Of a stretch of 64,000 nucleotides of DNA, positions 15,060-45,639 are shown in pieces. The DNA comes from a virus. The stretch covers positions 885 through 64,884 of the IMG/VR virus record IMGVR_UViG_3300036790_000049, one strand, 5' to 3'. Made by a program: the position numbers and the translations under genes. The first letter of the stretch is position 1, and each line of letters opens with the position of its first letter. The notes below the pieces were generated by a model. That model made no database searches and was not told the origin of the DNA. It saw only the letters and a program-made list of their open reading frames with translations.

Positions 15060-15731
15060 CTACTCCCCGACGCCGCAATACTGCGCGAGCGCGTGTGATG
15101 TTTCTGCCTGGTACGTCTTGACCATCGAGTTCATGTCGTGCACGTCCCCGGCCTGCGCCGCGAGATCCGCGTTGGCGAATTCGATCTTGAGCACGGCAAC
15201 CTCGCTAGCGAAGTTGGCACCCGGAGCCTCATCGCCAACCGCCGAGAGCTTACGCGCGAGCACGGGACCGTCTGCCTGCACCGCACGCTGTGACACCACG
15301 GTCTCATCGGTGATCTCGGCAGCGTTCTGGAGTCCGTTGCACGCGCGGACATGAGCGGGCGAGCCGGTGTTTTCTGTGGCTGCCTTCGCCACCTTTGGCG
15401 ATGCCCCGGTTGCCGTAGGGGTGCCGAACGCGTTGTTCGCCGCACCGCAGCCGGACAGTGCGAGCGCGACCAGGAACACGCAGAGGCCGACGATAAGCAG
15501 CAGCAACGCCAAGCTGCCGCGAGGGGTCCGGTGCTGCACGCTGACATTCAGGGTGCTGTGGGATGGCCGCCACGCGAGCGCAGTCTCTACCGGCAGGTCC
15601 CGCCGCTCCCGGTGCAGTCTCCTGAGAGCCGCATCAACCTCCGCTTGCGGAGGGATCGGGAACTCACGGGCGAGCATCTCATCGGTGATACGGGGGATAT
15701 TCCTGGTCGTGTACGGGTCGTCGTTCTGCAT
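15060..15731 (-). CDS. putative lipoprotein / membrane-anchored exported protein
   Basis: GGGAGGTAG RBS; TM helix ending in lipobox-like LALSGC. Confidence 0.6.
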   Translation of the reverse strand: MQNDDPYTTRNIPRITDEMLAREFPIPPQAEVDAALRRLHRERRDLPVETALAWRPSHSTLNVSVQHRTPRGSLALLLLIVGLCVFLVALALSGCGAANNAFGTPTATGASPKVAKAATENTGSPAHVRACNGLQNAAEITDETVVSQRAVQADGPVLARKLSAVGDEAPGANFASEVAVLKIEFANADLAAQAGDVHDMNSMVKTYQAETSHALAQYCGVGE

Positions 15732-15773
15732 GTCACTACCTCCCTGTTCAATTACGTGCCCAGTTAATCGGTA

Positions 15774-15816
15774 CGCCGGGCCGGTGTTCCACAGCTTCCG
15801 CTTCACCGGCCCGGCG
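15774..15816 (-). terminator. hairpin
   Basis: 13-bp perfect stem CGCCGGGCCGGTG / CACCGGCCCGGCG. Confidence 0.55.
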
Positions 15817-15882
15817 CGTCCGATCCTACACGCTCCGTTTACCCTTGCGGAAGAGGGTTCCGGAGGTTCTGGATGTTCTGGT

Positions 15883-16830
15883 CTAGACGCACGCCTTCAC
15901 GCCGGACGCGAAGTAGCTGTACAGCCACTTGCCGGTCGTTCCGTTCGAGTACCCCAGTCGCAGTCCCTTCGGGAACGAGCCGCCGCGATGCGTGACGAAC
16001 GACACGGAGCCGTTTGCCCCAACTGTCAGCGAATGGCCGATGCCGAGATACTTGCCGCTGTTGAGCCGGGTTGACGCGTAGAAGGTCACGTTGCGGTCAC
16101 CCGCAGTGTCGGTGACAGTCCAGTGACGATTGGCGTAGTTGCCGCACACGTCCACGGCCGAGAGCTTGTTCGTCACCGGAGCCGGGGCACACTGGCTAAC
16201 TCCGGTGATATCGCCGCTCGTGGCCTGCGAGCCGTTGTAGGCGTCAGTCCACTGCTGGCAGTCGGCCGCGTCACTGTAGTGCCACGCCCATGTGGTGAGG
16301 TCCGGACCCGCGCCGAAAGTGACGTCGGAGCCAAAGAACTGCTCAACCCAGTCTGTCGTGCTTACGCCGCCGCCACCGGTCCACTTCGCGGGCATGTCGG
16401 CCGCATCGGGGGTGTTTGAACTGGCATCGAACGTCACGGAAGCGGTACCCGAGATCGCAGCTTGCGGACTGCCCGTAATCGGGATGGCCTGCGCCCCCGG
16501 GGAGATGGCCCCGGTCACGGCATATGCGGTTCCGGTGTCCGAGATCGTGCCCGTGTAGCTGTAGCACGACGTTGCCGTAGCGCCGCAGTCGGTCAGGGTG
16601 GCGTCAGCTTCCACGAGAGTAACGGCAGCCGTGCGCGTCATCGAGTCGTTAGCCCAGTTATCTCCGCTGTAGCCGGAATCCGGCCGGGCATGCAGTGCGG
16701 TTGACGCGCTGACGGTGGTAGCTGCGTTTGCGGCCCCGGCGACTGCCAGAGAGACAGCCCCGAAACCAGAGATCGCCGTAACGGCAGACAGCACCGCAAC
16801 GACGACCTTCCTGCTGATGAAACCGTGCAT
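15883..16830 (-). CDS. secreted beta-rich protein
   Basis: Sec signal peptide ending AANA; Thr/Ala/Gly-rich; paired Cys. Confidence 0.7.
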   Translation of the reverse strand: MHGFISRKVVVAVLSAVTAISGFGAVSLAVAGAANAATTVSASTALHARPDSGYSGDNWANDSMTRTAAVTLVEADATLTDCGATATSCYSYTGTISDTGTAYAVTGAISPGAQAIPITGSPQAAISGTASVTFDASSNTPDAADMPAKWTGGGGVSTTDWVEQFFGSDVTFGAGPDLTTWAWHYSDAADCQQWTDAYNGSQATSGDITGVSQCAPAPVTNKLSAVDVCGNYANRHWTVTDTAGDRNVTFYASTRLNSGKYLGIGHSLTVGANGSVSFVTHRGGSFPKGLRLGYSNGTTGKWLYSYFASGVKACV

Positions 16831-16867
16831 GTTCCCTCTTCCTGTTCCTAGACGATAGACACAAAAG

Positions 16868-17002
16868 CCTCGCAGGCCCGGACCCGTTGCTATCCGCCGA
16901 CTGCTACGCGATCCTGGGTTTTAGACCTGTCCGGGAAGACAAGGTACCAGCCCGACTCACAAGAGCGGCGGCCTCGGTCACGCGATATCCGGGCCTGCGA
17001 GG
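16868..17002 (-). ncRNA. candidate structured RNA bounded by a perfect 15-bp inverted repeat
   Basis: CCTCGCAGGCCCGGA (16868-16882) / TCCGGGCCTGCGAGG (16988-17002); internal hairpins; CTTTTGT follows on the minus strand. Confidence 0.4.
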
Positions 17003-17086
17003 TGTTCCGAAGGTACTCCCCTATCTCCCTTCACACAACCCTTTCGGGAAAGGTTCCGGAAGTTCTGGGAGTTCCGGTTAGTGCTG

Positions 17087-17656
17087 TTAGCCGTTCATCG
17101 TCCACTTGCCGTCGGTGGGGTAGTTGACCCCCGGACTTGAGACGACTTCCAGGAACTTGTTGGACGAGTCCCAGACGATGCCCCACGCCTTCCCGTTGCT
17201 CTCGGTTGTGGTAGCACCCTTGCTGATGATCACACCGAACGTGCCGTTGGTCGGCGCGTTGCTGAAATCCTCGTCCGTGTTGCCGTCGCCGCCGGTACAG
17301 GTCAGTTCGATCACGAACCCGGAACCCGGCTCCTCCGGAGATGCCCAGTCCAGGCACAGCTTGGAGAAGTTGTCCTGAATGTGCCAGCAGGTACCGCCGT
17401 TGCAGTTGTTGTCACCCTCGTTGATCAGGGTGTACGTCTGCGGCGTGCCGGTGGTGAATGCTGTCACGCAGCGGGCGTCTCCGCCACCAGTGCAGGAGTT
17501 GGACGTGCCCTGAACGCTCTCGGCTGCCAGCCCGACAATCGTGTAGCTGGTGGAAGCCGATGCGGGTCCGGCGACTGCCACCGCAGCACCGATACCGGCA
17601 AGCGGCACGATGAACGCGGCGGCAATGACGGCCAGCCTTCGCCTAATTCTCAGCAT
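17087..17656 (-). CDS. secreted protein, possible ricin-B/beta-trefoil lectin-like domain
   Basis: Signal peptide ending PASA; W.I.D..SKLCLD...VIELTC pattern; 6 Cys. Confidence 0.55.
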   Translation of the reverse strand: MLRIRRRLAVIAAAFIVPLAGIGAAVAVAGPASASTSYTIVGLAAESVQGTSNSCTGGGDARCVTAFTTGTPQTYTLINEGDNNCNGGTCWHIQDNFSKLCLDWASPEEPGSGFVIELTCTGGDGNTDEDFSNAPTNGTFGVIISKGATTTESNGKAWGIVWDSSNKFLEVVSSPGVNYPTDGKWTMNG

Positions 17657-17719
17657 GTAATTCCTTTCTGTTTGCCGGTCCTCGTGACCGGACGCTTGGC
17701 GATCCGACCCTAGATCCTA

Positions 17720-18043: not shown

Positions 18044-18060
18044 AACTGGTTCTCTCTTTC

Positions 18061-18327: not shown

Positions 18328-18343
18328 TTGACTCCTCTTTCTC

Positions 18344-22645: not shown

Positions 22646-23369
22646 GTGAGGCTGGTTCCACCCCGTTGCGTGCCCAGTCGTCGGCCGACATGACGGCCTG
22701 CTTCTGGAACTCGGCATACTGCGCGACCGGAATCCACCCGGAGCGGACTGCCTTGCTTCGGTGCATTTCGCCGTGCTCGTTGAAATGCGCGAGTAGTTCT
22801 AGAATCACGATTTGCAGGTGCACGCGGTATTGCATTTCCTTGTCGGCCCGGAGCCGTTCCGCGTCGATCTTCTCGCGCAGCCCGGACGGCCCCTCGCCGG
22901 GAGGAACTCCGTGCCAGTCGTCCCGAGCCCGTACGGTGTCGCCCCATGCCTCAGTGACCATCGCGAGGAACGAGCCGAGAACGAAGTCTGGTGTATTGCT
23001 GTAGTTCTCGATCGAGTACCGGTTGATCACCTCGGCCAGTGCGTCGTGCAATGGCATCTTCGGTTCTGTGCGCAGCATCGGCTCGGACGGTGACATGGCC
23101 ATATAGGCGTCCGCCGTCTCCGCGTGCACGTCCTTTCCGGCCTGCACGGCTTCGGCATCGGTTCCGTTAGTTCCGGAAGTTCTGGGGTTCTTCATTGCTT
23201 CCTCCTCGTTTATGTACCGAATCCACTCACGGTCACCCGATGTGAGCTTCTCGGATACCTGGATCATCGCGCCTTGCGGTGAGTAAGCGCGCTCCCTGAT
23301 GCTCATCCGGTGATCGCCGCACTCGTCCCGGATTGTGACCGTGAACAACTGGAGCTTAGGCTTCACCAT
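22638..23369 (-). CDS. hypothetical protein (two in-frame RBS-associated starts)
   Basis: GGAG RBS at ATG 23369 and GAGGAGG RBS at internal ATG (MKNPRT); INRYSIENYSNTPDFVL domain. Confidence 0.6.
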   Translation of the reverse strand: MVKPKLQLFTVTIRDECGDHRMSIRERAYSPQGAMIQVSEKLTSGDREWIRYINEEEAMKNPRTSGTNGTDAEAVQAGKDVHAETADAYMAMSPSEPMLRTEPKMPLHDALAEVINRYSIENYSNTPDFVLGSFLAMVTEAWGDTVRARDDWHGVPPGEGPSGLREKIDAERLRADKEMQYRVHLQIVILELLAHFNEHGEMHRSKAVRSGWIPVAQYAEFQKQAVMSADDWARNGVEPASHD

Positions 23370-26726: not shown

Positions 26727-27637
26727 ACTTCCCTCCCGTTCTTGATGCCCGTGAGCACTCGTGACCACGCGTCGTGTCTCTGGTCACTTATGAGTGCGCT
26801 GCGAGTGTCATAGTAAGCCGTGTCAACCCATGTCTCGTTACGCCACGCACCGAACCTGCCAGTGCGCAGCACATAAGGATGGCAATTACAGTTGGTTGAT
26901 ATCGGTTTCCTGATGATTCGGATCGATGACCCGAATCCCATTCCCTCAATATTCGCGTGATCCAGTGCTCTCGAAACTGGCCACTCGGTCACCTCTATCC
27001 CGAAGATCCTAGAGCTACGAGACCATTCAACCGAGGGGTCCGCGTTAAAGATGATCGTGTCGTCTGGCTGTCCGGGGAAAATGGCTTCCGGGGTGACAGC
27101 TACCTGCACCGTCTCGAATGAATGACGCCGGTCACACAAGCTCCGTGCCGGTGCAGTGCAGACAACGAGCACGGCTGGGTCTCCAGCAATCGCATTCATC
27201 TCATACGAGGTGACCCACTTGTTCTCGATAGTATCCGAGTACAATTCCCAGAGCCGATCGTACGCTTCCGGGAATCGCCATGCGTGGTATCCAGGAGAGA
27301 GGATATCTCCGTTGATGTTGATGTTGATGTCGCCGTACATCTTGGTCCGGTAGTCCAGTATCGAACCACCGATGACTATCTGACGGATATAACCGTACGG
27401 GTGATCTACGGTGATCCCCGGAATTGCCCGTTGCAGGAGCAGAGGCCCCCGCTGCGGGGTCTTCACCTTCGGGGCTATGACCCGTACCGGATACCCGAGC
27501 CCGTACGCAGCATGCGCCGCAGCGAGCCCGGCAGGACCGCAGCCGATCACCACGACCGACTGAATCCGGCCGCGCACCGTCACCCCGGACCCTTCGGCAG
27601 TCGTGGCGTCCGCGCTCTCGTCGCTCACTCTGGCCAC
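26723..27637 (-). CDS. FAD-dependent oxidoreductase
   Basis: Rossmann VVVIGCGPAGLAAAHAA; C-terminal GRFGAW; ATGA overlap with the methyltransferase. Confidence 0.8.
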   Translation of the reverse strand: MARVSDESADATTAEGSGVTVRGRIQSVVVIGCGPAGLAAAHAAYGLGYPVRVIAPKVKTPQRGPLLLQRAIPGITVDHPYGYIRQIVIGGSILDYRTKMYGDINININGDILSPGYHAWRFPEAYDRLWELYSDTIENKWVTSYEMNAIAGDPAVLVVCTAPARSLCDRRHSFETVQVAVTPEAIFPGQPDDTIIFNADPSVEWSRSSRIFGIEVTEWPVSRALDHANIEGMGFGSSIRIIRKPISTNCNCHPYVLRTGRFGAWRNETWVDTAYYDTRSALISDQRHDAWSRVLTGIKNGREV

Positions 27638-28074
27638 GTCTCCATCTTGGAGATAGCACGGGTCCGCGAAGTAAGCGTGACGTGATGACCGCCTCCTGGA
27701 GTCCAGCTATGCAGGAGTTCATGCTCGTGCGGTTCCGGCAGGAAAAACGAGACCGAGTGACCGTCTCCGTACGTGGCGGTTACCTCCACTGACGCCACGG
27801 CTGCCGACAGGGCTCGAAGTTCCGAAGGTTCTGGAGGTACCGGCTCATTCGGCGGTACCGGCTCATTCGGCGGAACGTCGGGTACGCGGCCCCGAGCTTG
27901 CGTACGCGGGCCTGGCTTGCCCGGTGGTGGCCCGGGTACCGGCTGCATCGGTGCGCCTCTCTGCCGCTGCTGCCGTAGCCGCTGAATCTCGTCTCCGAAC
28001 GCACCGTCAACCGGAGCCGGACCCGTCACCACTTCCCCCGGCTCGTTCCCCGTCCCGGGTGACTGCTTGCTCAT
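27625..28074 (-). CDS. Pro-rich hypothetical protein
   Basis: GGAGCAGGAG RBS; PPNEPV tandem (18-bp duplication). Confidence 0.6.
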   Translation of the reverse strand: MSKQSPGTGNEPGEVVTGPAPVDGAFGDEIQRLRQQRQRGAPMQPVPGPPPGKPGPRTQARGRVPDVPPNEPVPPNEPVPPEPSELRALSAAVASVEVTATYGDGHSVSFFLPEPHEHELLHSWTPGGGHHVTLTSRTRAISKMETWPE

Positions 28075-28228
28075 TTTGCTCCTGCTCCCGGAGTACATAT
28101 CCGTTAAAGAATGCGCCGATCATCAGTCCGCGCAGGAATTTAACTGCTCTGGAGTATTCGTCGGGAATGCCGCGCAGCTTACGGTCTGCATAAGCATGCG
28201 CGGCATCCTCTAGTTGTTTCTGGTTCAC
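28007..28228 (-). CDS. hypothetical protein
   Basis: GTGA overlap with upstream gene. Confidence 0.45.
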   Translation of the reverse strand: MNQKQLEDAAHAYADRKLRGIPDEYSRAVKFLRGLMIGAFFNGYVLREQEQNEQAVTRDGERAGGSGDGSGSG

Positions 28229-29561: not shown

Positions 29562-29634
29562 GTGTGAGCGCGGCCGTCCCGGTTTTCCATGATCCCGGGA
29601 TCGCAAGGATGTCCCGGAACGGCCGCGCTCTCAC
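29562..29634 (-). terminator. long hairpin
   Basis: 12-bp perfect core GAGCGCGGCCGT / ACGGCCGCGCTC with imperfect extensions. Confidence 0.5.
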
Positions 29635-29700
29635 AAGCTAGCGGGCCTGGACCCCTAATTACAAGGGGGTTCCACAGGTTCCGCTAGTTCCGCTCGCTGC

Positions 29701-30297
29701 CTAGAAGGGATTGTCGTCCTTGCCCTTCTTGCCCTTCTTGCTCTTGGCCTTCTTGCTGGACTTGGCACCCGACACCTCGCCGGTCTTCTCGTCCCAGTCG
29801 TGCCCGGAATCCAGCGGCATATACTTGCGGACGCGGGCGGTGTACTCGCCCTCGTACTTCTCGCGCTTGATGACCATCCGGCAGCGAGCCGACTTGGTTC
29901 CGGGAACCCAGTTCTTGACCTTCTCGACCGGCTGGCCGACGTTGTCCTCGTCCCCGACGATCGTGCGTCCCTTGACGTCAGCGATCGTGAGGCCGAAGAG
30001 AGCGAGGAAAGGCTGGTACCGGAACGCGGCCTTGGGGGTGAACGTCACGTTGTCCCAGACTCCGAGACCGTTGTACACCGCCTCGTCCCCGGTGTTGCCC
30101 TGCGCCTCGACCAGAACCCTGAACATCGGGTTGTCGTTCTGCGAGATCGAGAACCAGAGGCGCTTGATCACGCCCGACAGGATCGTGCCGGACGAGGGGA
30201 TATCGCCGTCGTACTCGTTGAAATCTCCCCGGTCCTCGTACTCGACGTCCAGTTCCTTCTCGTTGAAAACGTCGTCGGAGAGCTTGAGCTTTGGCAT
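29701..30297 (-). CDS. SSB-like / DUF669-like single-stranded DNA-binding protein
   Basis: Follows Sak4-like ATPase; Y.G..P..G......I......S...NPM; C-terminal DDNPF tail. Confidence 0.6.
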   Translation of the reverse strand: MPKLKLSDDVFNEKELDVEYEDRGDFNEYDGDIPSSGTILSGVIKRLWFSISQNDNPMFRVLVEAQGNTGDEAVYNGLGVWDNVTFTPKAAFRYQPFLALFGLTIADVKGRTIVGDEDNVGQPVEKVKNWVPGTKSARCRMVIKREKYEGEYTARVRKYMPLDSGHDWDEKTGEVSGAKSSKKAKSKKGKKGKDDNPF

Positions 30298-32994: not shown

Positions 32995-33416
32995 CAGTCT
33001 CTACCCTCCCCCGCATCGTCCGGAACTGGTGGAACCTCCGGAACTTCTGGGACTTGGGCAACGACTAGCTCGCCGTCGTCGTCAAGGTCAAGCGTGTACA
33101 CGCCGTGTGGATGACTATCCCACGACCAGCGGGAACGATGCGCTGCCGCGTTGACCGGGCAGTCAAAGAGGTGGCCGTCCCTTCGGCAGCGTGGCGGGTG
33201 CTGGATTGTCCACCCGTCGTCATCGAACTTGATGAGGTGGCCCTCGTCCGGGTCGGCCGGAATGATCCATCCCTGGTCTACGAGCGTACTCATCGCACCG
33301 AGGAATGACTGATGCCGCCGCTTGGATATGTTCGCCCACGGGTAGCGCGTGCCGAAGATGTCTTGCTGGTACTCGTGGAACAACTCCGCAAGTCGCTCCG
33401 CATCTGGCGTTGCCAA
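32994..33416 (-). CDS. hypothetical protein
   Basis: AGGGAGGAG RBS before TTG 33416. Confidence 0.55.
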   Translation of the reverse strand: MATPDAERLAELFHEYQQDIFGTRYPWANISKRRHQSFLGAMSTLVDQGWIIPADPDEGHLIKFDDDGWTIQHPPRCRRDGHLFDCPVNAAAHRSRWSWDSHPHGVYTLDLDDDGELVVAQVPEVPEVPPVPDDAGEGRD

Positions 33417-33528: not shown

Positions 33529-34224
33529 TTAGTAGGGAGCGGGAGCGCTCGCCCTAGCGGAACCCTTGGAACCTCCAGAACCCTTGCCGACCTTCGCAGC
33601 CTTGGCCGCAGCCTTGGCCTTGCTTCCGGCAGGCGCGGGCGCGGGTGTGGCGGCAGACTTGGCCGCAGCCGGGGCAGACTTGGCCGCAGCGGTACGCGTA
33701 CGGCGCGCGGGTGCCGGGGCCGGGGTGGTGTCCTTCGGAGCCGCAGCGGCAGGCTTACGGCTCCGTGCGGCGGTTCCGGCAGTTCCGGAAGTTCCGGCCG
33801 CAGCCTTGGCAGCGCCACGAGTGGCGGAGCGGGTCGCCGTCCCCTTGGCTGCCGCTGCTGGCTTCGCAGCCTTGGCCGCAGCCTTCGCGGCCTCTGCCTT
33901 GGCCGCCGCCGCTTCCTCGCGTTCGGCGCGCTTGGCCTCGCGGTCGTTGGCCCGGTCGATCTTGGCCTGCTCGCGCTCCTGCGCCGCCGCCTGCCGCGCC
34001 GCGAGATCGGTCTGGTTGACGGACGACTTCTGGAAGAGCATCCGCATCGTGCCGCCCATCGCGACACCCTTCCGGAACGCGTCGATCGCGGGGTTGCTCA
34101 TGCCGTTGGTGACGCCGGTCTGGTCCTCGATCCAGTCGGCGAACCGGACCATCACGTGAGTGGCGTCCTTCTCGGCATACGCTGACAGCGGGTACTCGAT
34201 GACTTCGGCCTGCTTTTTGGCCAT
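33529..34224 (-). CDS. Ala/Lys-rich histone-H1-like putative DNA-binding protein
   Basis: Folded N-terminus then AAKA/PAAA low-complexity basic tail. Confidence 0.7.
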   Translation of the reverse strand: MAKKQAEVIEYPLSAYAEKDATHVMVRFADWIEDQTGVTNGMSNPAIDAFRKGVAMGGTMRMLFQKSSVNQTDLAARQAAAQEREQAKIDRANDREAKRAEREEAAAAKAEAAKAAAKAAKPAAAAKGTATRSATRGAAKAAAGTSGTAGTAARSRKPAAAAPKDTTPAPAPARRTRTAAAKSAPAAAKSAATPAPAPAGSKAKAAAKAAKVGKGSGGSKGSARASAPAPY

Positions 34225-34296: not shown

Positions 34297-36219
34297 CTAC
34301 GCAAGCTGATGAGAAGCGGCGTGGCGGATTATTTCAACTCCCCGGCTCCCGTCTAGGACTTCCTTGCACGCTCCCTCCCTAGCTCCGCAGCGTACGGCTA
34401 TGTCGGCCTCAATCGATTCGAGCGAGCGGAGGTAGTACACCGTGACCGGAACCCGTCCGGCCTCCCTCGAAACCCGGTGCGCGCGGTCCTCAACCTGTAG
34501 CTGCTCGTCTGGAATCGACGTCTCGTCAATGATGATCACGACGTCGGCAGCGTCAAGCGTGATCGACTCGCCACCGGCTTTCGTGTTGATCATCACGACC
34601 CGGTGCTCGTCATCTGGATTGCTGAATTCCCGGACGATATCCTCTCGCGTGCGCTGCTTTGTCTCGCCGGTGATTACGTAATTCGGGAAACCAGCATGCG
34701 CGATTGCCCCGGAGAACAGGTTGATGACCTGCGTAAACTGCGACGCAATGATCACCTTTCCCTCGTTACCGGTAAGGGATGGCAGATTGTCAAGAATCCA
34801 GTTTAGCTTGTTCGATGGTTCCCGTGGCGCAAAGCGCACGCCTGCATTGTCCGAGATCATCACGCCGTAGGTAGTGGATAGCTGCTTGAGCCGGGTCAGT
34901 TCCGCGAGCACGCCGTTGGCCATGAGAATGCCGTCACCGACTTGTGCCCGTGCGTCCTCTGCCATATCCTGGTAAGCGCGGGCCTGCTGCGATTCCATCG
35001 GCAGCCATATCCCGAGCGGGGAATCCGGGACGTCCGGATATAGCGGCGTGCCTGCGTACAGCTTCGGTGGCAGATCCTTGGCCACCTCCGCCTTGGTGCG
35101 GCGCAGCACGTACGGAGCCAGCATCCTGTCGAATGCCGCGCGAGCATCCGGCCGCACATCCTCGCCGGACACTACTAGCCCGTAGTCGCCCTCTTCTACC
35201 TCGAAATACATCTTGGCGTAACGCCAGTAAGACGTAAACACATCGGGACGCAGCCAGTTAAGCGTTCCCCACATGTTTATCACCTTGCCGCGAAATGGCG
35301 TCCCGGAAAGTGCGAGCTTGAGACCGCCCTCTTTCACCGGCAGCCGCATAGCTCCCAATCTAGTCTGGCTTATCTTGGCAGACTTGGAACCGTCCTCGTG
35401 ATGCATGACCGAGAGATGCGACTTGCCGATGAGCGCGTTATGGCTCTCGTCAAAGACAACCGCATCCCAGTCGCTCTCAAACAGGTACCTGAATTCCGGC
35501 GACTCGTAGCGCTGGTTTTCTACGTAGTCCGTTCGCATCCGGACCATCTCCACATTGCATATCAGTATGCACATCTTGTCCGGGAACTCTTGGCATGCTA
35601 TGTAATACTCCGACATGGTAAAGTCCCGCTGCGCCCGCGTGCCGTCGCACACAAACGTCTGGACGTTACCCCCGAGCCATCGGTGCGCCTCACGTTCCCA
35701 AACGGCCCTGAGCGCCGTTTTGCGGCAGAACACGAGCACCCGGTGGGCGTGGGCTAGGGTGAGTGCCCCGAGCGTCTCTAGGGTCTTCCCAAGGCCCGGC
35801 TCGTCGGCATTGAGCGTTGACCCGCCGTCAAGCGCGAACTTGGCCCCTACTGCCTGAAACGGGCGGTTGCTATAGGCCATGTCCAGAAGTGGCGCTAGTT
35901 CCGCTAGTTCCGGAAGTTCCGCCGAGCCTGCCATGCGAAGCGTGGTCTGGTTATTCTCCCTGATCACCTCTGCCTTTGCCCACGCGGATAGCTCGGGTCC
36001 GATCTCCAGCATGTCCCCGAACACGAGCCGCAGTTGCCTGCACACCTCAAGGTCAAGCGGGTAGGTCCAGCCTAGGAACTTGTCCCGGTAGCCGGTCTTG
36101 TCCCATAGCGCAGAGACACCGGGTACCTGCTTAGCCATGTCCTTACCGGCTCCGCCGAGCCATGGCACCTTAGCAAGTATCCGGTTGTCTCCGTGCCGTT
36201 CGATATGAACGGTCGGCAT
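34297..36219 (-). CDS. SNF2-like (SF2) DNA helicase
   Basis: ADEPGLGKT, VFDESH, LALSGTP, LRRTK, Q.EDRAHR. Confidence 0.9.
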   Translation of the reverse strand: MPTVHIERHGDNRILAKVPWLGGAGKDMAKQVPGVSALWDKTGYRDKFLGWTYPLDLEVCRQLRLVFGDMLEIGPELSAWAKAEVIRENNQTTLRMAGSAELPELAELAPLLDMAYSNRPFQAVGAKFALDGGSTLNADEPGLGKTLETLGALTLAHAHRVLVFCRKTALRAVWEREAHRWLGGNVQTFVCDGTRAQRDFTMSEYYIACQEFPDKMCILICNVEMVRMRTDYVENQRYESPEFRYLFESDWDAVVFDESHNALIGKSHLSVMHHEDGSKSAKISQTRLGAMRLPVKEGGLKLALSGTPFRGKVINMWGTLNWLRPDVFTSYWRYAKMYFEVEEGDYGLVVSGEDVRPDARAAFDRMLAPYVLRRTKAEVAKDLPPKLYAGTPLYPDVPDSPLGIWLPMESQQARAYQDMAEDARAQVGDGILMANGVLAELTRLKQLSTTYGVMISDNAGVRFAPREPSNKLNWILDNLPSLTGNEGKVIIASQFTQVINLFSGAIAHAGFPNYVITGETKQRTREDIVREFSNPDDEHRVVMINTKAGGESITLDAADVVIIIDETSIPDEQLQVEDRAHRVSREAGRVPVTVYYLRSLESIEADIAVRCGAREGACKEVLDGSRGVEIIRHAASHQLA

Positions 36220-37890: not shown

Positions 37891-37917
37891 GCCTACCCCT
37901 CACCTGGAGGGGTAGGC
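37891..37917 (-). terminator. hairpin
   Basis: GCCTACCCCTC-ACCTG-GAGGGGTAGGC, 11-bp perfect stem. Confidence 0.6.
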
Positions 37918-37948
37918 AACGTGGTTCCGGAAGTTCTGGAGGTTCCGG

Positions 37949-38134
37949 CTACTCGGGATCGGTGTACGCGTTGATCCCGATCGTGACGTCGGTGCCGGGG
38001 ATGACCTGGTTGCCGCCCGTGGTTCCGACCATCATTTTCTTGCCGGACGCGGACGGCCCGAGCCGCTTGGTCAGGTCGATAGTGATGGTCGCCGTCTTCT
38101 TGTCTGACGACACGGAGATCTTGACATTCTTCAT
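37949..38134 (-). CDS. small conserved phage protein
   Basis: AGGGAGG RBS; IDL....GPSASGK...V.TT.GN. Confidence 0.75.
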   Translation of the reverse strand: MKNVKISVSSDKKTATITIDLTKRLGPSASGKKMMVGTTGGNQVIPGTDVTIGINAYTDPE

Positions 38135-39168: not shown

Positions 39169-39278
39169 GCCTAGCTCCCTTCTCTCGGGGTCTAGCCTAC
39201 CCGTCCCAGTTCCGTTAGTTCCGGTGGTACGGAGTCCAGACACGCCCGGTGCTCGGTCTCTTTGTCCCTCTATGCGGT

Positions 39279-39308
39279 ACTATATCCCGTTTCGTCCGAG
39301 TTTAGCAA
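39279..39308 (-). promoter_or_regulatory. sigma70/HrdB-type promoter for the replication module
   Basis: -35 TTGCTA, 18-bp spacer, -10 TATAGT, ~110 nt upstream of ATG 39168. Confidence 0.6.
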
Positions 39309-39536
39309 GCGAGACTCGCCGGATAGCTCGACTCACGTAAGTTGCTACCGTAAGATGCTTGCGTGCGGTTGCGGTCCTCGTGCCCCGCCTCCGCGCCAGG
39401 CTGGTTCCCTCAGTCCTGCTCCTATAGGCCGGTGGGCGGTTCTTGACTCCCTGTTCTCCCGCCCACCGTCCTGGGATTGCGAACCCGTATCGGATCGTGT
39501 AGTCTCGCCGCTGCGTTCCCTTACCGGTGTCGCCAG

Positions 39537-39594
39537 ACAGCCCGGCTTTCCGCCGCTCCCTTGCTCGGTCGCGGTATCAGGAGAGCCGGGCTGT
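39537..39594 (-). terminator. stem-loop ending the tail operon
   Basis: ACAGCCCGGCT / AGCCGGGCTGT 11-bp perfect stem. Confidence 0.5.
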
Positions 39595-39633
39595 TTATGT
39601 CTGCCTAGTTCCGGTAGTTCCGGATGTTCCGGG

Positions 39634-41328: not shown

Positions 41329-41343
41329 TTCAGATCATCTCCA

Positions 41344-43068
41344 TTATGCGTCGTAACCCACTACGAGCACGTTGTCAAAGTTAACCGTGGCGTTGGCGTC
41401 TGCCGTACGCACGGTAGACAGCCGGTATTTAACGGCGGTGAGTGTCGGCAGGCCCGACGAGATCGTATGACGGCTCGTCCACGTCTCGCCGTCCGGCGAA
41501 GTGTAGAACGTGAGTGTTCCGGACACCAGGGTCATCTTCCACCACTTGTGGTTGGTATTGTCATAAGCGATGGTTGTGTCGGTGTTGGTGCCGCCCGTCC
41601 GCGAGCGCATGAGCAGGTTGGTGCCGCTCTGGCCCATGCCGATGTAGTCGTTGGCGTCCACGTACATCTGCATGAGAGTCAGGCCCGACGCGAGCGCGGG
41701 CATCGTGACCGCCTCTACTTCTGCCCGCAGTCCTGAGAATGCAACTGTGTCCGTAGACACCAGGTTGTCATTTCCCGTGGTTGTACAGGTCAACTGCACC
41801 TGCGCGCCCTCAATGGTGGCAGTAGATCCACCCGGCACGGTCCAGGCCGACGAGAAGAGTCCCCCGTCAAAGTTCTCGAATCCGTCCTCCAGGAACGGTG
41901 CCCAAGGCGTGACCGGGTACACGGCTGTAATCTGCTCTACCATGTTGGTCCAGTATGCAGCACCAACCGCCGCGTACTTGCCGCCGCCACTCGCGCCCGG
42001 AAGCGTGTCGTACGGGTTGGCCAGCGTGTCATCGGTAATGAACACATACCCGGCCCGGTTAGCTCGCGTAAGCGATAGTGCCTCATCCCTCATCTGTTCC
42101 GAGTAGCAGGCGAACACGACATGCATAAACCGGTTGCTGGGATAGTTGATCGCCCACGATGGATTGGTGAATGCGCGGTACTGTCCTATATCGCCCTCGA
42201 AAATCGAGACGATATCGCAGGCATCCATATACGACTCGTCCGGCGTGATACCCGGATTGATCACGACGATGCGCAGACCGGTAGTCTTGGCCTTCACATA
42301 GTTGTACAGGTTCAGGTAGAACGGCTGGTCTCCCGTGTCGATAGACACCTCGTCAAAGAGAATGCCGTCCACGTTGTAGAACGTGTACCAGTCGTCAATC
42401 TGTCCCTCGATCGTGGGCACGTCGCCCGCGCCGTAATTGGTCGCCACATACCCAAGGCAGGTCACCCCGGCTGCGCGCAACTGGGAAAGCTGCGCGGTGA
42501 AGTCAGCATTGGGGGAACCACCGGGGCCGCTGTCCACGTTCACGAACGTGAGCGCGAAGTAGGGACTGGCAGCTTGCAGGGTTGCCCACGTCCCGCCGCC
42601 GTCGTCAAAGTACGTCGGGTAGATGTAGAACGGGCCGCCGATCCGCTGTACCGCATCCCCCATGCGCCATGGCGTGATTTCCTGTCCAGGGAGAGTGCTC
42701 CCGCCTGGACCGAGTGCGCCGCCGAGCAGTCCCGTGACGTTGGCCTCTATTGTGTCGATCTCGGCCGACAAGTCCGTTGCGAAGATCCAGTACCTAGGAC
42801 CAGCCCCGGCACTCGCGTCGGCCGCCATCATCCGGGTGTCCGGCGTGGTAGAAGGACCAGAGAACTCCGGAAGGAACCCGTTGCTGTCCGTGGTGATCGA
42901 CGTTACGGGCGTACCGGTGTTGTCCAGAAGATCGGTAATTACCGATCCTCCAGTTATATCGGTAAAGAACAGGATCGCGGTAGACGCAACCGGCTCGGCA
43001 TCGCTCGTAGTGCCGTCGATCTGCAGAACCCAGTCAGTCGCGCCGCCACCGAAAGCATGCCGTGGCAT
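41344..43068 (-). CDS. tail fibre/spike with spherulation-specific family 4 (GH135) domain and C-terminal lectin-like domain
   Basis: YIYP...W..L...VN..SGPG...LGYVAT.YG...W...Y.VDGILFDE...INPG...DI..IFE...H.V...GYVFITD...NPY..LP. Confidence 0.8.
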   Translation of the reverse strand: MPRHAFGGGATDWVLQIDGTTSDAEPVASTAILFFTDITGGSVITDLLDNTGTPVTSITTDSNGFLPEFSGPSTTPDTRMMAADASAGAGPRYWIFATDLSAEIDTIEANVTGLLGGALGPGGSTLPGQEITPWRMGDAVQRIGGPFYIYPTYFDDGGGTWATLQAASPYFALTFVNVDSGPGGSPNADFTAQLSQLRAAGVTCLGYVATNYGAGDVPTIEGQIDDWYTFYNVDGILFDEVSIDTGDQPFYLNLYNYVKAKTTGLRIVVINPGITPDESYMDACDIVSIFEGDIGQYRAFTNPSWAINYPSNRFMHVVFACYSEQMRDEALSLTRANRAGYVFITDDTLANPYDTLPGASGGGKYAAVGAAYWTNMVEQITAVYPVTPWAPFLEDGFENFDGGLFSSAWTVPGGSTATIEGAQVQLTCTTTGNDNLVSTDTVAFSGLRAEVEAVTMPALASGLTLMQMYVDANDYIGMGQSGTNLLMRSRTGGTNTDTTIAYDNTNHKWWKMTLVSGTLTFYTSPDGETWTSRHTISSGLPTLTAVKYRLSTVRTADANATVNFDNVLVVGYDA

Positions 43069-43076
43069 AGTTCCTC

Positions 43077-43400
43077 CTAAACAGGATTAATAATGAATGG
43101 TCCCTGAGCCAGTGTCGTCTCGTAGTCGCCTATCGTTGTCAGCGCATCCACGCGATACCACATCGTACCCGGCGTGAGAATCTCGGTACCAGGAATCTCG
43201 ACCGACAGAATGCCGTTAGCCGCGTCCACGACCGTGCCGTCTAGCTGCACTCCGCTCTCGTCGTCGGAAGTATCCGATGCCTTGAGAGTCATCTGGATAT
43301 TGTAATCCGACAAATCGAATGCCGACGTTCCCTGAAACGCAGTCCACGTCCGCGTGACCGTATTTCCCTGCGGCACCTGCACGATAATGGTGCTGGACAT
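43077..43400 (-). CDS. BppU-N-like baseplate/tail accessory protein
   Basis: QG.T......FDLSDY...TLK...DA.NG...V.I. Confidence 0.55.
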   Translation of the reverse strand: MSSTIIVQVPQGNTVTRTWTAFQGTSAFDLSDYNIQMTLKASDTSDDESGVQLDGTVVDAANGILSVEIPGTEILTPGTMWYRVDALTTIGDYETTLAQGPFIINPV

Positions 43401-44668
43401 TAGGAACCTCTCACTGCCTCGATCGCGGGTGTTTCATCAGTCATTGTCAGGTAGTCATCGGCTCGCCACAGTACCGCCGTGACGTCGGTATTGTGCCACA
43501 GAACCGCAGTGACCGGAGAGTCCTCCTCGACAGCCCGGTAATACGTGCCAAATATCTGCATCTTCGGCAGGATGACCCCGCCACTGAGAATTGGCTGTGT
43601 GGAGACAACCGCGCCCTCTGCGGCGATCCGCATTTTCGGGAACGCCACGGCTGCCGAAAGGGTGACGATCGGCTCCAGCGTCCCCGATACACGCATCTTC
43701 GGCAGGATAGCTCCGCCGCTCAGCGGGTCCACTTCGGCTGCGCTCGCAGACAGCTGCATCTTCGGGAGGGTAACGCTGCCGCTTATATCCAGTACTTCGG
43801 ATGCTTGCGCAGACAGCCGCATCTTGGGAAGAGTGACACCGCAACTAACCGTCAGAACTTCCCTGACCGAAGCCGACAAGCGCATCTTCGGGAGGATTAC
43901 TCCGCCGCTAAGTGCCAGCAGTTCGGTTGCCGCGGCCGAGAGCTTCATCTTCGGGAGCGTGACGGAGCCCGAGCCGATGATCTGCGCCGGTCCCAGATAA
44001 CCGGTGTCGGAAGCTCCCAGATCGTCTAGGTAGATAGTGAACGAAGCGACCGATGACGGGTCACCGAATCGTATCTGCGTGATTGCAGATGACGTGTTGA
44101 GGGTGGCTGCTGTGGCCTGCGTCTCGGTCGCCGTTACCGAGTCCATCGAGTTGAATATCGATACCGAAACCTGGCCTACTGTCGCTGACCCGGTTATGAA
44201 TCCCTCGATCCGGGACCAGGAGCCTACGTTTATTGCATTCGTGGTTGACGTGATGCCGTTGCCGGGGAATGTCTGCGAAGTTCCAGCCGCGTTAAGTGCG
44301 CTCAGCTTCCCGGTGGTGTTTAGCTGCACACCGCCGATGAAGGTAGAGCCGTTCAGAATCGAGAAAAGGCGAACTCCAGCAGTAGGCAGTGCCGATAGCC
44401 ATACGTAAGCCCGGAAGTAAACAGTCGGGATACTGGTAGCAGTAAGTGAAGTTGACCAGGCAAGACTTACGTTTACAACGGACGCAGGCTCAACAAGTTT
44501 GGCAGACAGGAAACCGTGGGCCGCCTCGGTACTGCTGAACGTCAGGGTGCCCCCGGACCCGATAGTAACCACGTTGAACGCAGTGTTTCCGGTACCTCCA
44601 GAGTTAGCGGTAGATACCGTGGTTCCGTTAGTGCCGTTCTCAAGGTTGTTACGCAGGTAGACAGCCAC
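43400..44668 (-). CDS. minor tail protein: ConA-like domain plus seven ~21-aa repeats
   Basis: G.V.LPKM.LSA repeat x7. Confidence 0.65.
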   Translation of the reverse strand: MAVYLRNNLENGTNGTTVSTANSGGTGNTAFNVVTIGSGGTLTFSSTEAAHGFLSAKLVEPASVVNVSLAWSTSLTATSIPTVYFRAYVWLSALPTAGVRLFSILNGSTFIGGVQLNTTGKLSALNAAGTSQTFPGNGITSTTNAINVGSWSRIEGFITGSATVGQVSVSIFNSMDSVTATETQATAATLNTSSAITQIRFGDPSSVASFTIYLDDLGASDTGYLGPAQIIGSGSVTLPKMKLSAAATELLALSGGVILPKMRLSASVREVLTVSCGVTLPKMRLSAQASEVLDISGSVTLPKMQLSASAAEVDPLSGGAILPKMRVSGTLEPIVTLSAAVAFPKMRIAAEGAVVSTQPILSGGVILPKMQIFGTYYRAVEEDSPVTAVLWHNTDVTAVLWRADDYLTMTDETPAIEAVRGS

Positions 44669-44695
44669 GGCTCACCTCCCTCCGGGGCAGGGAGA

Positions 44696-45133
44696 TTATT
44701 CCGGCTGCACGATCGTGAACGCCGACGCCTGCACGATGTCGCCAGCGACGATCGACGTGGTTGGAATGGTCAGGTCGAACGAGCCTCCCGTGGCGCCCAC
44801 GGAGCCGTCCATGACCACGGTCGTGCCGTCGCTCTTGTACGCCCGGAACCACGCGGCGGTGCCGGTAGCTGCCGCGTCACTGTCCTGCGTGATCGCATTG
44901 GCCGTAGCGGTGACGATCTTGGAACCTGCCGAGCCGGTCGCCACTGGCGGGGTTGCGAACGCGGGGTTGCCGAACGTCAGCGTGGAAAGCAGGGTCTGGG
45001 CACCGATCGCCGTGTTGGCGTCGGTCGGCTGCGATCCCGAGAAGATCTCGATCTTGCCCGAGTTGAGCAATGCCATCGCGGCTTCCAGAGTCACGATGCA
45101 TGTGTTGTCCGCGAAGAACGGGTTATTGGTCAT
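44696..45133 (-). CDS. virion structural protein
   Basis: G.IEIFSG.QP.DA......TLL..LT...PAF...A.A.G.A.WFR...DG.VG conserved phage pattern. Confidence 0.7.
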   Translation of the reverse strand: MTNNPFFADNTCIVTLEAAMALLNSGKIEIFSGSQPTDANTAIGAQTLLSTLTFGNPAFATPPVATGSAGSKIVTATANAITQDSDAAATGTAAWFRAYKSDGTTVVMDGSVGATGGSFDLTIPTTSIVAGDIVQASAFTIVQPE

Positions 45134-45157
45134 TGGTTCCCTCTCCTAGAGAGGCCA

Positions 45158-45178
45158 CGAACCGCGCGGAGCGGTTCG
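45158..45178 (-). terminator. small hairpin
   Basis: CGAACCGC-GCGGA-GCGGTTCG. Confidence 0.4.
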
Positions 45179-45261
45179 CAGCCTCAAGATCACGAGCAGA
45201 TCCTACCGGGATGCACCTTCCGGCGCTCGTCCCGGCAGAATCGCTCTCAGCGCTGCGCGTG

Positions 45262-45639
45262 CTACTCATCCCGCTGGGCAGGTTCCGGTAGTTCCGCTAG
45301 TTCCGGTCTCTGCTGCGAGTGCCCGTTGAGCTTGTCGTTCCGCTGCAACCGGTAGATCTGGAAAAAGAACGTAACCGACCGCACCGGTATCAGGCAAAGA
45401 ACGACGATCTCAAACCAGCCGAACCAGATAGACGTGATCGGCACATTGAATAGCCGGTGGATGACGGACGGCAGCAGTGCCAGCGATGCCAGCCAGTCAA
45501 GCGTTACGAGCGCCGGGCCATACGGTGCCTTCCTCCAATCCCAGATAATGAGCAAGACTACGGGAAGCAGCGCAGTAGACCAGAAGGCAAACTCAACCGC
45601 CCACTGCGCGATATGTCCCTGTAGCACTAGCTGTCCCAT
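45262..45639 (-). CDS. multi-TM membrane protein (putative holin)
   Basis: Three hydrophobic segments; W.W...P.G pattern. Confidence 0.6.
   Translation of the reverse strand: MGQLVLQGHIAQWAVEFAFWSTALLPVVLLIIWDWRKAPYGPALVTLDWLASLALLPSVIHRLFNVPITSIWFGWFEIVVLCLIPVRSVTFFFQIYRLQRNDKLNGHSQQRPELAELPEPAQRDE

What the first reader, a model, noticed from the sequence alone, without database searches (positions are those of the whole stretch)
15731..45307. Recurring 'stop codon - triple box - strong stem-loop - next gene' architecture
Seen, in mRNA order: stop 39634 / box 39607-39633 / stem 39537-39594; stop 37949 / box 37923-37949 / stem 37891-37917; stop 29701 / box 29668-29694 / stem 29562-29634; stop 17087 / box 17052-17078 / stem 16868-17002; stop 15883 / box 15856-15882 / stem 15774-15816; box 45281-45307 in the last codons before stop 45262 / stem 45158-45178. 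In all six the box reads GGAAC on the transcript. The plus-strand example (stop 1020, box 1041) flips strand and keeps the same transcript sense. Established: lambda nut sites and HK022 put elements are transcript-sense signals upstream of terminators. Inference: an uncharacterised termination/antitermination or mRNA-processing code in which a phage or host factor recognises the triple box just before a terminator.
Basis: partly seen in the sequence, partly recalled or inferred. Interest (0 to 1): 0.82.

Follow-up and report, generated by a model that had tools for sequence, protein, structure and literature searches.

The report
Replication-initiator binding repeats scattered through phage
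The recurring "triple box" is real, but it is most likely the DNA recognition repeat of the phage's own RepAM-type replication initiator, copied to about 21 places across the genome instead of a single origin, not an RNA antitermination signal.

Summary
Three CGGAACY cores in exact 9-nt register occur at 21 places (27 matches vs 0.19 expected), and all six listed stop/box/hairpin cases are as described. The architecture is only part of the picture: 8 boxes are intergenic, all in transcript sense. The other 13 lie inside ORFs, in four reading frames and both orientations, and keep rare codons. About 12 positions are kept in two relatives at 50-80% protein identity, where the flanks no longer align.

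The window encodes a RepAM-family initiator (DUF3631, 2642-4054), and one box sits in that gene's 3' end. In actinomycete integrative elements, plasmids and viral contigs, the same spot of repAM carries 9-nt-phased triplets of 8-bp cores (CCGNNAC). The core differs between RepAM lineages, and four loci use GGAAC. Purified pMEA300 RepAM is reported to bind such repeats (te Poele 2006, via PMC2440964).

So the boxes are best read as RepAM-type DNA sites. What is unusual is their genome-wide spread, seen only in this phage clade. Intergenic copies sit just after stops, in phase with promoter-like hexamers and ahead of conserved hairpins. This suggests a stoperator-like or origin-like role, which is untested. 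The nut/put-like RNA reading is not supported. The same scan had already noted the dispersed box (e1-5351458).

The parts
2642..4054 (+). RepAM-family (DUF3631/PF12307) replication-initiator gene; candidate box-binding protein
   Evidence: Pfam PF12307 E=3.3e-33, above the curated cut-off. Walker A/B motifs and the C-terminal GY..D..AW motif align with AICE RepAMs. The model shows a P-loop core plus a winged-helix-like C-terminus, with weak fold hits only to replication initiators and helicases. PF12307 is equated with RepAM in PMC3218068.
3969..3991 (-). Box inside the 3' end of repAM (antisense; read as SGGSGSS)
   Evidence: The same position holds a box in rel1 (L380 4982-) and holds the RepAM repeats in AICEs.
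1044..1066 (+). Intergenic box after stop 1020 in the plus-strand arm; its first unit pairs with a downstream anti-unit
   Evidence: rel1 has a counterpart at L380 1829+ followed by a hairpin.
5539..5561 (-). Intergenic box at the end of the long minus-strand operon
   Evidence: The rel1 counterpart (rel1 44489 = L380 6396-) is followed by a T-rich terminator.
12684..12706 (+). Antisense box in the first codons of the D5_N primase/helicase gene
13907..13929 (-). Box, probably coding (frame read as PPELPE) in ORF 13761-14321
   Evidence: rel1 35301+ lies in a Pro-rich linker of a called gene.
15857..15879 (-). Intergenic box 3 nt after TAG 15885-15883. It is followed by TTCCGC-N18-TAGGAT (15852-15823) and hairpin 15816-15774.
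   Evidence: z=-4.25.
17053..17075 (-). Intergenic box after stop 17087. It is followed by TTGTGT-N17-TACCTT (17038-17010) and the 135-nt inverted-repeat element 17002-16868.
   Evidence: The box, the promoter-like hexamers and the stem base are conserved in rel1 although the flanking genes differ.
23161..23183 (-). Box in codons 5-12 of a gene (read as RTSGTNGT)
   Evidence: kept in rel1 (26538+).
27819..27841 (-). Box, probably coding (read as PVPPEPSEL) in ORF 27625-28098
   Evidence: frame worked out from the sequence.
29669..29691 (-). Intergenic box after TAG at 29701. It is followed by TTGTAA-N18-TAGCTT (29664-29635) and the long hairpin 29634-29562.
   Evidence: z=-5.55. The box, TAGCKTGTGA and a hairpin of different sequence are kept in rel1 and rel2.
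33022..33044 (+). Antisense box array (33013-33062), read as VPEVPEVPPVP at the end of the DUF6085 ORF
   Evidence: Kept in rel1 (16318-) and in rel2 (16922-), where it lies in a gap between called genes.
33559..33581 (+). Antisense box in the Lys/Ala-rich tail of the 231-aa protein; forms an inverted pair with 33795-33773
33773..33795 (-). Sense box in the same tail (read as GTSGTAGT)
35898..35920 (-). Box about 100 codons into the SNF2 helicase gene (read as ELPELAELA)
   Evidence: Kept in rel1 and rel2, with GAA in 9 of 9 Glu codons (GAA is 32% of Glu codons genome-wide).
37924..37946 (-). Intergenic box 2 nt after TAG 37951-37949. It is followed by hairpin 37917-37891 with tail TTCGTGTTGT, which overlaps TTGCCT-N18-TAGGCT (37919-37890).
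   Evidence: z=-4.21; 17 pairs, 5 compensatory.
39209..39231 (-). Box in the early leader, between the conserved promoter and the first early gene (ATG 39168)
   Evidence: kept in rel1 (9045+) and rel2 (9912+).
39279..39308 (-). Conserved sigma-70-like early promoter TTGCTA-N18-TATAGT
   Evidence: scan. TTGC and TATAGT are invariant in the three-genome alignment, where the flanks are diverged.
39608..39630 (-). Intergenic box 3 nt after TAA 39636-39634 at the end of the late operon; followed by hairpin 39594-39537
   Evidence: z=-3.86. Kept after non-homologous tail genes in rel1 (8715+) and rel2 (9608+).
45282..45304 (-). Box in the last codons of ORF 45262-45639 (read as ELAELPEP); two strong hairpins follow (about 45250-45158)
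   Evidence: z=-4.80; kept in rel1 (3888+) and rel2 (3619+).
58109..58131 (+). Antisense box in ORF 57473-58222 (read as a Gly/Ser linker)
   Evidence: kept in L048 (7226+) and L112 (5795+).
60903..60925 (+). Antisense box in the portal gene (read as VPQVPQVP); inverted partner of 61081-61059, 133 nt away
   Evidence: identical 23 nt in L048.
61059..61081 (-). Sense box in the portal gene (read as GTPGTPGT)
   Evidence: Kept in L048 with different spacers but the same cores.

Best explanation
Each box is a triplet of 8-bp cores (CCGGAACY) in 9-bp register. It is the double-stranded-DNA recognition repeat of the phage's own RepAM-family replication initiator (window 2642-4054).

In integrative elements such triplets are confined to the putative origin at the 3' end of repAM. 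In this phage clade the same kind of site has been multiplied to about 21 places and is kept there by selection. The sites sit where they can be tolerated: the few free bases just after stop codons, and flexible linkers or termini of proteins.

Inferred working model: RepAM protomers (probably three per box, through the C-terminal winged-helix-like part) occupy the asymmetric triplets. At transcription-unit borders the bound protein would act as a polar landmark. It would block or slow RNA polymerase arriving from the upstream gene, in front of the hairpin. It lies in register with the -35-like hexamer of the next unit, so it could set that promoter's activity. In the early leader it could shut early transcription down as initiator accumulates. 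This is stoperator logic run by a replication initiator, much as DnaA or SV40 T antigen double as transcription factors (my knowledge).

Shown here: the sites, their conservation and their kinship with RepAM repeats.
Not shown: binding by this RepAM, and any effect on transcription or replication.
For: - Excess and exact phasing of the boxes.
- Syntenic retention at about 12 positions in rel1 and rel2. Core identity is 86%, against 39% in the +/-30-nt flanks; this figure is biased upward because the sites were ascertained by their cores.
- Cores are conserved while the 2-3 spacer bases drift.
- Coding copies occur in 4 of 6 frames and both orientations. They keep the rare codons GAA, GTT and GGA.
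- RepAM gene with a box in its 3' end, in the window and in rel1.
- 9-nt-phased triplets at the same spot of repAM in AICE-like islands, Streptomyces plasmids and 13 of 19 viral contigs. Closely related RepAM pairs in the tree share a core; the cores seen are GGAAC, GCAAC, GCCAC, GTAAC, GCTAC and others.
- Four of 30 sampled RepAM loci carry GGAAC triplets within 200 nt of the domain end.
- Purified pMEA300 RepAM binds multiple identical 8-bp repeats in its own 3' coding end (PMC2440964, citing te Poele 2006).
- Promoter-like hexamers start 4 or 14 nt after 3 of the 8 intergenic boxes. The chance of that is about 1e-5, and they are conserved in the relatives.
- Conserved hairpins follow the boxes.
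- One box lies in the leader of a conserved early promoter.
Against: - No binding data exist for this protein. RepAM is known as an initiator, not as a transcription factor.
- At the phage's repAM 3' end there is only one triplet, with no inverted partner. The GCAGGTCAG motif that accompanies many AICE triplets is at chance level in the window.
- The phage RepAMs sit on a long branch and do not cluster with the GGAAC-type AICE RepAMs.
- Thirteen boxes lie inside genes, including a sense copy in the portal gene and one in the helicase gene. A roadblock there would cost expression.
- A 9-bp period does not place three sites on one face of B-DNA.
- Orientation relative to transcription is confounded with orientation relative to any origin at the arm junction.
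Confidence: 0.55

Rival explanations
1. The boxes are RepAM sites that act in replication, not transcription. They would be multiple asymmetric loading or initiation sites (auxiliary origins, or initiator-titrating sites). Their common orientation would make forks run with transcription.
For: - RepAM is a replication initiator, and its repeats mark the putative origin in AICEs (PMC2440964).
- Inverted pairs of triplets 133 and 213 nt apart lie in the portal gene and the 231-aa gene, which resembles the AICE origin layout. The portal pair is kept in L048.
- Coding copies in both orientations are under nucleotide-level constraint.
- Strong hairpins sit next to many boxes.
- Orientation flips with the arm.
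Against: - No AT-rich unwinding element or nick-site motif lies next to the boxes. The window's only clear AT-rich stretch (10059-10208) has no box.
- Placement 2-5 nt after stops, in phase with -35-like hexamers and in the early leader, points to transcription.
- 21 origins in 65 kb would be unprecedented.
Confidence: 0.22
2. This is the first reader's idea: the box acts on the transcript. A phage or host RNA-binding oligomer (HutP/TRAP-like, or N-like) would bind the three GGAAC motifs just upstream of a terminator hairpin and modulate termination, or would mark a processing site. Each unit also fits the mycobacterial RNase E context RN|CNU.
For: - All intergenic copies in four genomes are in transcript sense.
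- They start 2-12 nt after stop codons, where the RNA becomes ribosome-free.
- Conserved hairpins follow, one with a T-rich tail and compensatory changes.
- One copy lies in the early leader.
- Three short motifs with 4-nt spacers resemble HutP sites (my knowledge).
- AAC|YU fits RN|CNU (PMC10641625).
Against: - Six antisense copies are conserved at nucleotide level.
- The same architecture is a known dsDNA site of RepAM and sits in repAM 3' ends (PMC2440964).
- No RNA-binding protein family was found in the roughly 50 proteins scanned.
- The box has no conserved RNA structure.
- RNase E needs far less sequence than the 7 conserved positions per unit.
- No RNA data are available.
Confidence: 0.12
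3. The copies have no function of their own. A 27-bp repeat would have spread by slippage, gene conversion or illegitimate recombination from the repAM origin, surviving only where it is harmless (after stops, in linkers).
For: - It is found in four reading frames, always read as flexible peptides, and never in the two frames that would give RN(L/F) or FR(R/K).
- Boxes turn over between relatives: about 5 of 16 window boxes lack a rel1 counterpart, and rel1 has its own at 12652 and 23568.
- Boxes flank swapped gene cassettes.
Against: - Cores are kept while spacers and flanks diverge to near-random, at about 12 syntenic sites across phages with roughly 50% protein identity.
- Rare codons persist.
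- Intergenic copies have a uniform orientation and a fixed phase to promoter-like hexamers.
Confidence: 0.08

Closest known systems
RepAM binding repeats / putative origin of pMEA300-type actinomycete integrative and conjugative elements (te Poele et al. 2006, reviewed in PMC2440964)
   Same: - A PF12307 RepAM gene is present.
- Multiple near-identical 8-bp cores lie inside the 3' end of repAM.
- In the elements I read, triplets are in 9-bp register with cores of the form CCGNNAC. Four loci have the very same GGAAC core.
   Different: - In the elements the repeats are confined to one ~200-bp locus, with direct plus inverted copies and a conserved CTGACC/GCAGGTCAG motif.
- Here there are 21 dispersed triplets, mostly single and direct, at gene borders and inside genes, in a virus that shows no integrase. 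The accompanying motif is absent.
Stoperators of Cluster A mycobacteriophages (L5 gp71; PMC9283540)
   Same: - More than 20 asymmetric protein-binding DNA sites are spread over an actinophage genome.
- They lie in short intergenic spaces near stop codons.
- Their orientation is tied to the direction of transcription.
- One site is associated with the early promoter.
   Different: - Stoperators are single 13-bp sites bound by a monomeric HTH immunity repressor of temperate phages.
- Here each site is three 9-bp units, the likely binder is a replication initiator, no repressor or integrase was found, and most copies are inside genes.
Other dispersed motifs of actinobacteriophages: Cluster K/EF SAS-ESAS, Cluster EC 18-bp motif, Cluster O/EG inverted repeats (PMC7302621, PMC4351075)
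   Same: These are cluster-specific short motifs repeated 5-30 times in intergenic regions. They are uniformly oriented, conserved where the flanks diverge, and of unknown function.
   Different: - Those sit 14-30 bp upstream of start codons and are single units.
- The present boxes sit after stops, are phased triplets, also occur in coding DNA, and can be tied to a named protein family.
Lambda nut / HK022 put and HutP/TRAP-type RNA sites
   Same: They are transcript-sense elements upstream of terminators. HutP sites are three short motifs with 4-nt spacers (my knowledge).
   Different: - nut and put are structured RNAs present once per operon.
- No N-, HutP- or TRAP-like protein was found.
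- Conserved antisense copies and the RepAM link argue for DNA.

Membership tests
RepAM-type binding repeats (pMEA/AICE origins) | Element encodes a RepAM (PF12307/DUF3631) protein | tested here: met
   Window 2642-4054, E=3.3e-33, 115.8 bits against a cut-off of 24. rel1 has one too.
RepAM-type binding repeats (pMEA/AICE origins) | Multiple near-identical 8-bp repeats inside the 3' end of the repAM coding sequence | tested here: met
   Triplet 3991-3969 follows the conserved GY..D..AW motif. The same is true in rel1. The homologous spot in 4+ AICE loci, 2 plasmids and 13 of 19 viral contigs holds phased triplets.
RepAM-type binding repeats (pMEA/AICE origins) | Direct and inverted copies that can form a hairpin around a pC194-like nick site | tested here: inconclusive
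   There is no inverted partner at the phage repAM end. Inverted pairs exist in the portal gene and the 231-aa gene. The AICE-associated GCAGGTCAG is at chance level. CTTGAT was not searched.
RepAM-type binding repeats (pMEA/AICE origins) | Specific binding by the cognate RepAM protein | not testable with these tools
   Known only for pMEA300 RepAM (PMC2440964). The model of the window protein has a winged-helix-like C-terminus at moderate confidence.
Cluster A stoperators | Many asymmetric sites in short intergenic spaces, oriented with transcription | tested here: met
   All 8 intergenic window boxes and all intergenic boxes in the relatives are in sense. However, 13 of 21 are in ORFs.
Cluster A stoperators | 13-bp single site bound by an HTH plus stoperator-domain immunity repressor of a temperate phage | tested here: not met
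   The site is 3 x 9 bp. No repressor, integrase or HTH family turned up in the Pfam/PHROG scans of about 50 proteins.
Lambda nut / HK022 put | Structured RNA element (boxA/boxB hairpin or put stems), one per early operon | tested here: not met
   The box is an unstructured direct repeat in the folds. There are 21 copies, 6 of them antisense.
HutP/TRAP-type RNA-binding sites | Cognate ring-forming RNA-binding protein encoded nearby, and a site that overlaps the terminator or antiterminator | tested here: not met
   No such family was found in the scanned proteins. The boxes end 4-50 nt before the main hairpins.
Intrinsic terminators (the hairpins) | G+C-rich stem-loop followed by a T/U run | tested here: inconclusive
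   Met for 37917-37891 and for the rel1 operon end. The other strong hairpins lack a T run.
Collagen-like or linker-coding tandem repeat | Repeat explained by one reading frame of a protein | tested here: not met
   There are 8 non-coding copies. Coding copies are in 4 frames on both strands, read as GTS, E(L/P)P, VPx and GSG.

The most novel reading that the evidence does not exclude
A replication initiator (RepAM) has been turned into a genome-wide punctuation system of a lytic-looking actinophage. Its asymmetric triplet sites, placed at the ends of genes and in phase with the next promoter, would let initiator occupancy stop, insulate or start transcription units. Some inverted pairs might also fire replication. 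This would couple replication state to the gene-expression programme, a stoperator-like code that arose independently from origin iterons.
Probability: 0.33. Interest if true: 0.8.

Novelty: new variant of a known kind. Interest (0 to 1): 0.62.

Why it matters
Dispersed, oriented motifs are common in actinobacteriophage genomes. Apart from stoperators, almost none has a known binding protein. Here a motif can be tied to a named family with a published in-vitro binding activity, which makes the question directly testable by EMSA or ChIP with one protein.

If the dispersed copies are functional, they would show how origin iterons can be recruited into a genome-wide regulatory or multi-origin system.

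The comparison also extends what is known about RepAM elements: 9-bp-phased triplets with a CCGNNAC core that differs between RepAM lineages. That could help to predict origins and incompatibility or specificity groups of actinomycete integrative elements.

Tried and rejected
- **Close relatives in GenBank phages:** none by DNA or by the 564-aa tail protein. Only distant DnaE hits at about 47-48%.
- **Exact-pattern scans of IMG/VR and of bacterial genomes:** these mostly returned collagen-like or microsatellite coding arrays. They were useful only because they surfaced L048, L112 and the two RepAM islands.
- **The CGGAAC-N3-4-GCAGGTCAG scan:** it gave only chance hits.
- **More distant relatives (L127, L128, L130, L131, L136, L137):** they have no box and no parallel phased motif.
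- **ECF-sigma promoter idea (GGAAC as a -35):** I found no consistent GTT/CGTT 16-17 nt downstream when reading the sequences.
- **Anti-Shine-Dalgarno mimic idea (CCUCC spacers pairing with the next RBS):** not supported by the folds.
- **RNA evidence:** the only sequencing run holding the window is a soil DNA metagenome.
- **RepAM tree:** it did not place the phage proteins with the GGAAC-type AICE proteins; they sit on a long branch.
- **Searches for other RepAM-bearing viruses with dispersed triplets:** none found.
- **One script timed out**; its folding was redone with strand folding.


Full report
**What the window is.** It covers 64,000 of the 65,151 bases of an IMG/VR virus record from soil. 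Gene content is that of a siphovirus-like actinobacteriophage:
- terminase, portal, capsid and tape measure on the minus strand from about 63 kb to 45 kb
- tail genes down to 39.6 kb
- an early/replication block from 39.2 kb to 5.6 kb, with SNF2 helicase, PD-(D/E)XK nuclease, AAA_24, ThyX, UDG, DnaE and a D5_N primase
- a short plus-strand arm at 0-4.6 kb

No integrase or repressor family was found.

**Checking the observation.** GGAAC-N4-GGAAC-N4-GGAAC with up to two mismatches matches 27 times, against 0.19 expected. This collapses to 21 sites plus one likely chance hit. Same-strand GGAAC pairs are spaced almost only 9 or 18 nt apart. A logo of 46 boxes from five genomes gives the 9-nt unit C-C-R-G-A-A-C-Y-N, with no signal in the flanks.

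The architecture is not the whole picture:
- Only eight boxes are intergenic, although all eight are in transcript sense.
- Thirteen lie inside ORFs: seven in sense and six antisense.
- The coding copies are read as GTS, E(L/P)P, VPx or GSG linkers. That is four of the six possible frames. The two frames never used would give basic/aromatic peptides.
- Roughly a quarter of the sizeable intergenic gaps hold a box.
- Sequence downstream of boxes is unusually structured in 5 of 9 cases, against 1 of 11 unboxed gaps.

**Comparative evidence.** Two syntenic relatives were recovered from metagenome assemblies.
- rel1 is a 65.7-kb contig at roughly 50-80% protein identity (L129, L132, L133, L260, L380).
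- rel2 is a 29-kb contig at roughly 35-80% (L134).
- Two structural fragments, L048 and L112, were also found.

Boxes recur at about twelve syntenic places:
- the end of the 125-aa gene
- after the last tail gene, even though that gene is non-homologous among the three phages
- the early leader
- after the 61-aa gene
- helicase codon ~100
- the antisense copy upstream of the 62-aa gene
- after the 198-aa gene
- the N-terminus of the 191-aa gene
- after the gene upstream of the exported-protein cassette
- the operon end
- the repAM 3' end
- the portal and scaffold-region copies

Cores are kept (86% identity; this figure is biased upward by how the sites were found). Flanks fall to 39%, and the spacer bases drift. 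In coding copies the rare codons required by the motif persist. For example, GAA fills 9 of 9 Glu codons of the helicase box in three phages, while GAA is 32% of Glu codons genome-wide. GTT appears in the VPx copies, while GTT is 16% of Val codons. The element is therefore selected at the nucleic-acid level, including copies that are antisense to the genes.

**What the box is.** Two non-microsatellite hits of a pattern scan over bacterial genomes lay next to DUF3631 genes in integrated elements of a Streptosporangiaceae MAG and a Frankiaceae MAG. The Streptosporangiaceae element was annotated and carries PolA/Prim-Pol, DUF3631 and a tyrosine integrase; the Frankiaceae contig ends just after its DUF3631 gene.

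The window's 470-aa plus-strand protein is also DUF3631. PF12307 is the RepAM replication initiator of pMEA300-type integrative and conjugative elements (PMC3218068). The review PMC2440964 reports, citing te Poele et al. [quoted passage not shown] That region is a putative origin that can form a hairpin.

In the window, box 3991-3969 lies at exactly that place, right after the conserved GY..D..AW motif. The same holds in rel1.

I then sampled RepAM loci more widely.
- In 30 loci from 301 actinomycete genomes, four carry GGAAC triplets within 200 nt of the domain end.
- Other loci carry 9-nt-phased triplets at the same spot with different cores: CCGCAAC, CCGCCAC, CCGTAAC, AGCGCTAC.
- Closely related RepAM pairs in the tree share a core.
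- Two circular Streptomyces elements (traB, prim-pol, DUF3631, xis-like HTH, integrase) show three direct TCCGCTAC units in 9-bp register, then scattered copies, then three inverted units, all within about 200 bp.
- Thirteen of 19 RepAM-bearing IMG/VR contigs show a phased triplet near repAM.

One of the 30 sampled genomes (G013, locus L390) is unpublished.

A moderate-confidence model of the window protein has a P-loop core and a winged-helix-like C-terminus. Its weak fold matches are all replication initiators or helicases: MCM, ORC/Cdc6, D5, NrS-1 and AsfvPrimPol.

The triple box is therefore best read as the cognate dsDNA repeat of the phage's RepAM.

**What is unusual.** In every other RepAM element examined, the repeats stay at the repAM locus. 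Only the window shows three or more separate triplet sites. RepAM itself is nearly absent from sequenced phages, with a single distant hit in 50,697 records.

**How the dispersed copies may work (inference).** Intergenic boxes begin 2-12 nt after the stop codon.
- In three window loci a sigma-70-like TTGNNN-N17-18-TANNNT starts 4 nt (29691, 37946) or 14 nt (17075) after the box. L112 shows one at 3 nt, and 15879 has a weaker one at 4 nt. At the 4-nt offset the -35-like hexamer falls in the 9-nt register of the array. The chance of 3 in 8 is about 1e-5, and the hexamers are conserved in the relatives.
- The hairpin after 37946 keeps 17 pairs with five compensatory changes, while its outer arms (the -35- and -10-like hexamers) stay invariant. 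The hairpins after 29691 differ completely in sequence among the three phages but start at a conserved TAGCKTGTGA.
- One box lies about 45-70 nt downstream of a strongly conserved early promoter.
- Boxes also precede the terminal hairpins of the late and early operons.

This fits a bound, asymmetric protein that marks unit borders. It would be a roadblock or insulator for incoming polymerase and a promoter-proximal regulator of the next unit. That is the logic of Cluster A stoperators (PMC9283540), but run by an initiator.

Against this model, many copies are inside genes. Two inverted pairs (portal, kept in L048; the 231-aa gene) mimic the origin layout of integrative elements, so a replication role (auxiliary origins or loading sites) is a serious rival. 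The match between box orientation and transcription direction is equally explained by selection for co-directional forks.

**The RNA reading.** It is disfavoured for these reasons:
- Antisense copies are conserved.
- The box has no RNA structure.
- No RNA-binding family was found.
- The box shares its architecture with RepAM repeats.

It is not excluded. The units do fit the mycobacterial RNase E context RN|CNU (PMC10641625), and no transcript data exist.

**Verdict.** I rate it a new variant of a known kind.

Noticed in passing
window 10059-10208 (and 10204-10212): A strongly AT-rich, repeat-laden stretch (TATATATATTTGAATACG...TATATATATTACGTATGTG) lies just downstream of the D5_N primase/helicase gene in a 60% G+C genome. 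The window's only exact GCAGGTCAG abuts it; this is the motif that accompanies RepAM repeats in integrative elements. It is a candidate unwinding element or origin. One exact 9-mer match is about what chance gives.
   Followed up: partly
window 39279-39308: An early promoter, TTGCTA-N18-TATAGT, has its hexamers invariant in three divergent phages while the surrounding ~400-nt intergenic region is hardly alignable.
   Followed up: yes
window 45133-39634 versus rel1 (L132 3930-8709) and rel2 (L134 3667-9608): The tail-fibre block between box 45304 and box 39630 is mosaic. A spherulin-4 domain protein is shared. The 564-aa protein, a 968-aa beta-helix protein and a 1047-aa protein replace one another. 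The boxes at both borders are kept, like cassette boundaries. The same happens at 17656-15060, where three window-only genes lie between conserved box/promoter/hairpin units.
   Followed up: partly
window 33529-34224: A 231-aa protein has a conserved N-terminal domain (phrog_34140) and a Lys/Ala/Pro-rich histone-H1-like tail ending in APAPY in all three phages. It is a likely non-specific DNA-binding protein. The tail carries an inverted pair of boxes.
   Followed up: no
RepAM loci L391-L401, L411, L412, L414-L432: Across RepAM (DUF3631) elements, the repeats at the repAM 3' end are triplets in 9-bp register with a CCGNNAC-like core. The two middle bases differ between lineages. The triplets are often followed by GCAGGTCAG/CTGACCTGC and by inverted triplets, and they encode the PE/PA-rich tail of RepAM itself.
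   Followed up: partly
L115 (IMGVR_UViG_3300045988_150210) 625-785: An unrelated viral contig has two non-coding GGAAC(T)TTC triplets 140 nt apart on one strand. I did not examine them for a RepAM gene.
   Followed up: no
window 27842-27877: An 18-nt direct duplication, GCCGAATGAGCCGGTACC x2, runs into box 27841-27819. This suggests local slippage or duplication at a box.
   Followed up: no
G000:C1:159-181 (left of the window): A further box (GGAACCAACGGAACCTCCAGAAC, minus strand) lies in the 884 bases of the record that precede the window.
   Followed up: no
phages collection, PV029746.1 31494-32507: The only RepAM-like hit among 50,697 GenBank phage records is in a Pseudomonas phage (Phipami28, 31% identity). 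RepAM is otherwise unrepresented in isolated phages.
   Followed up: no
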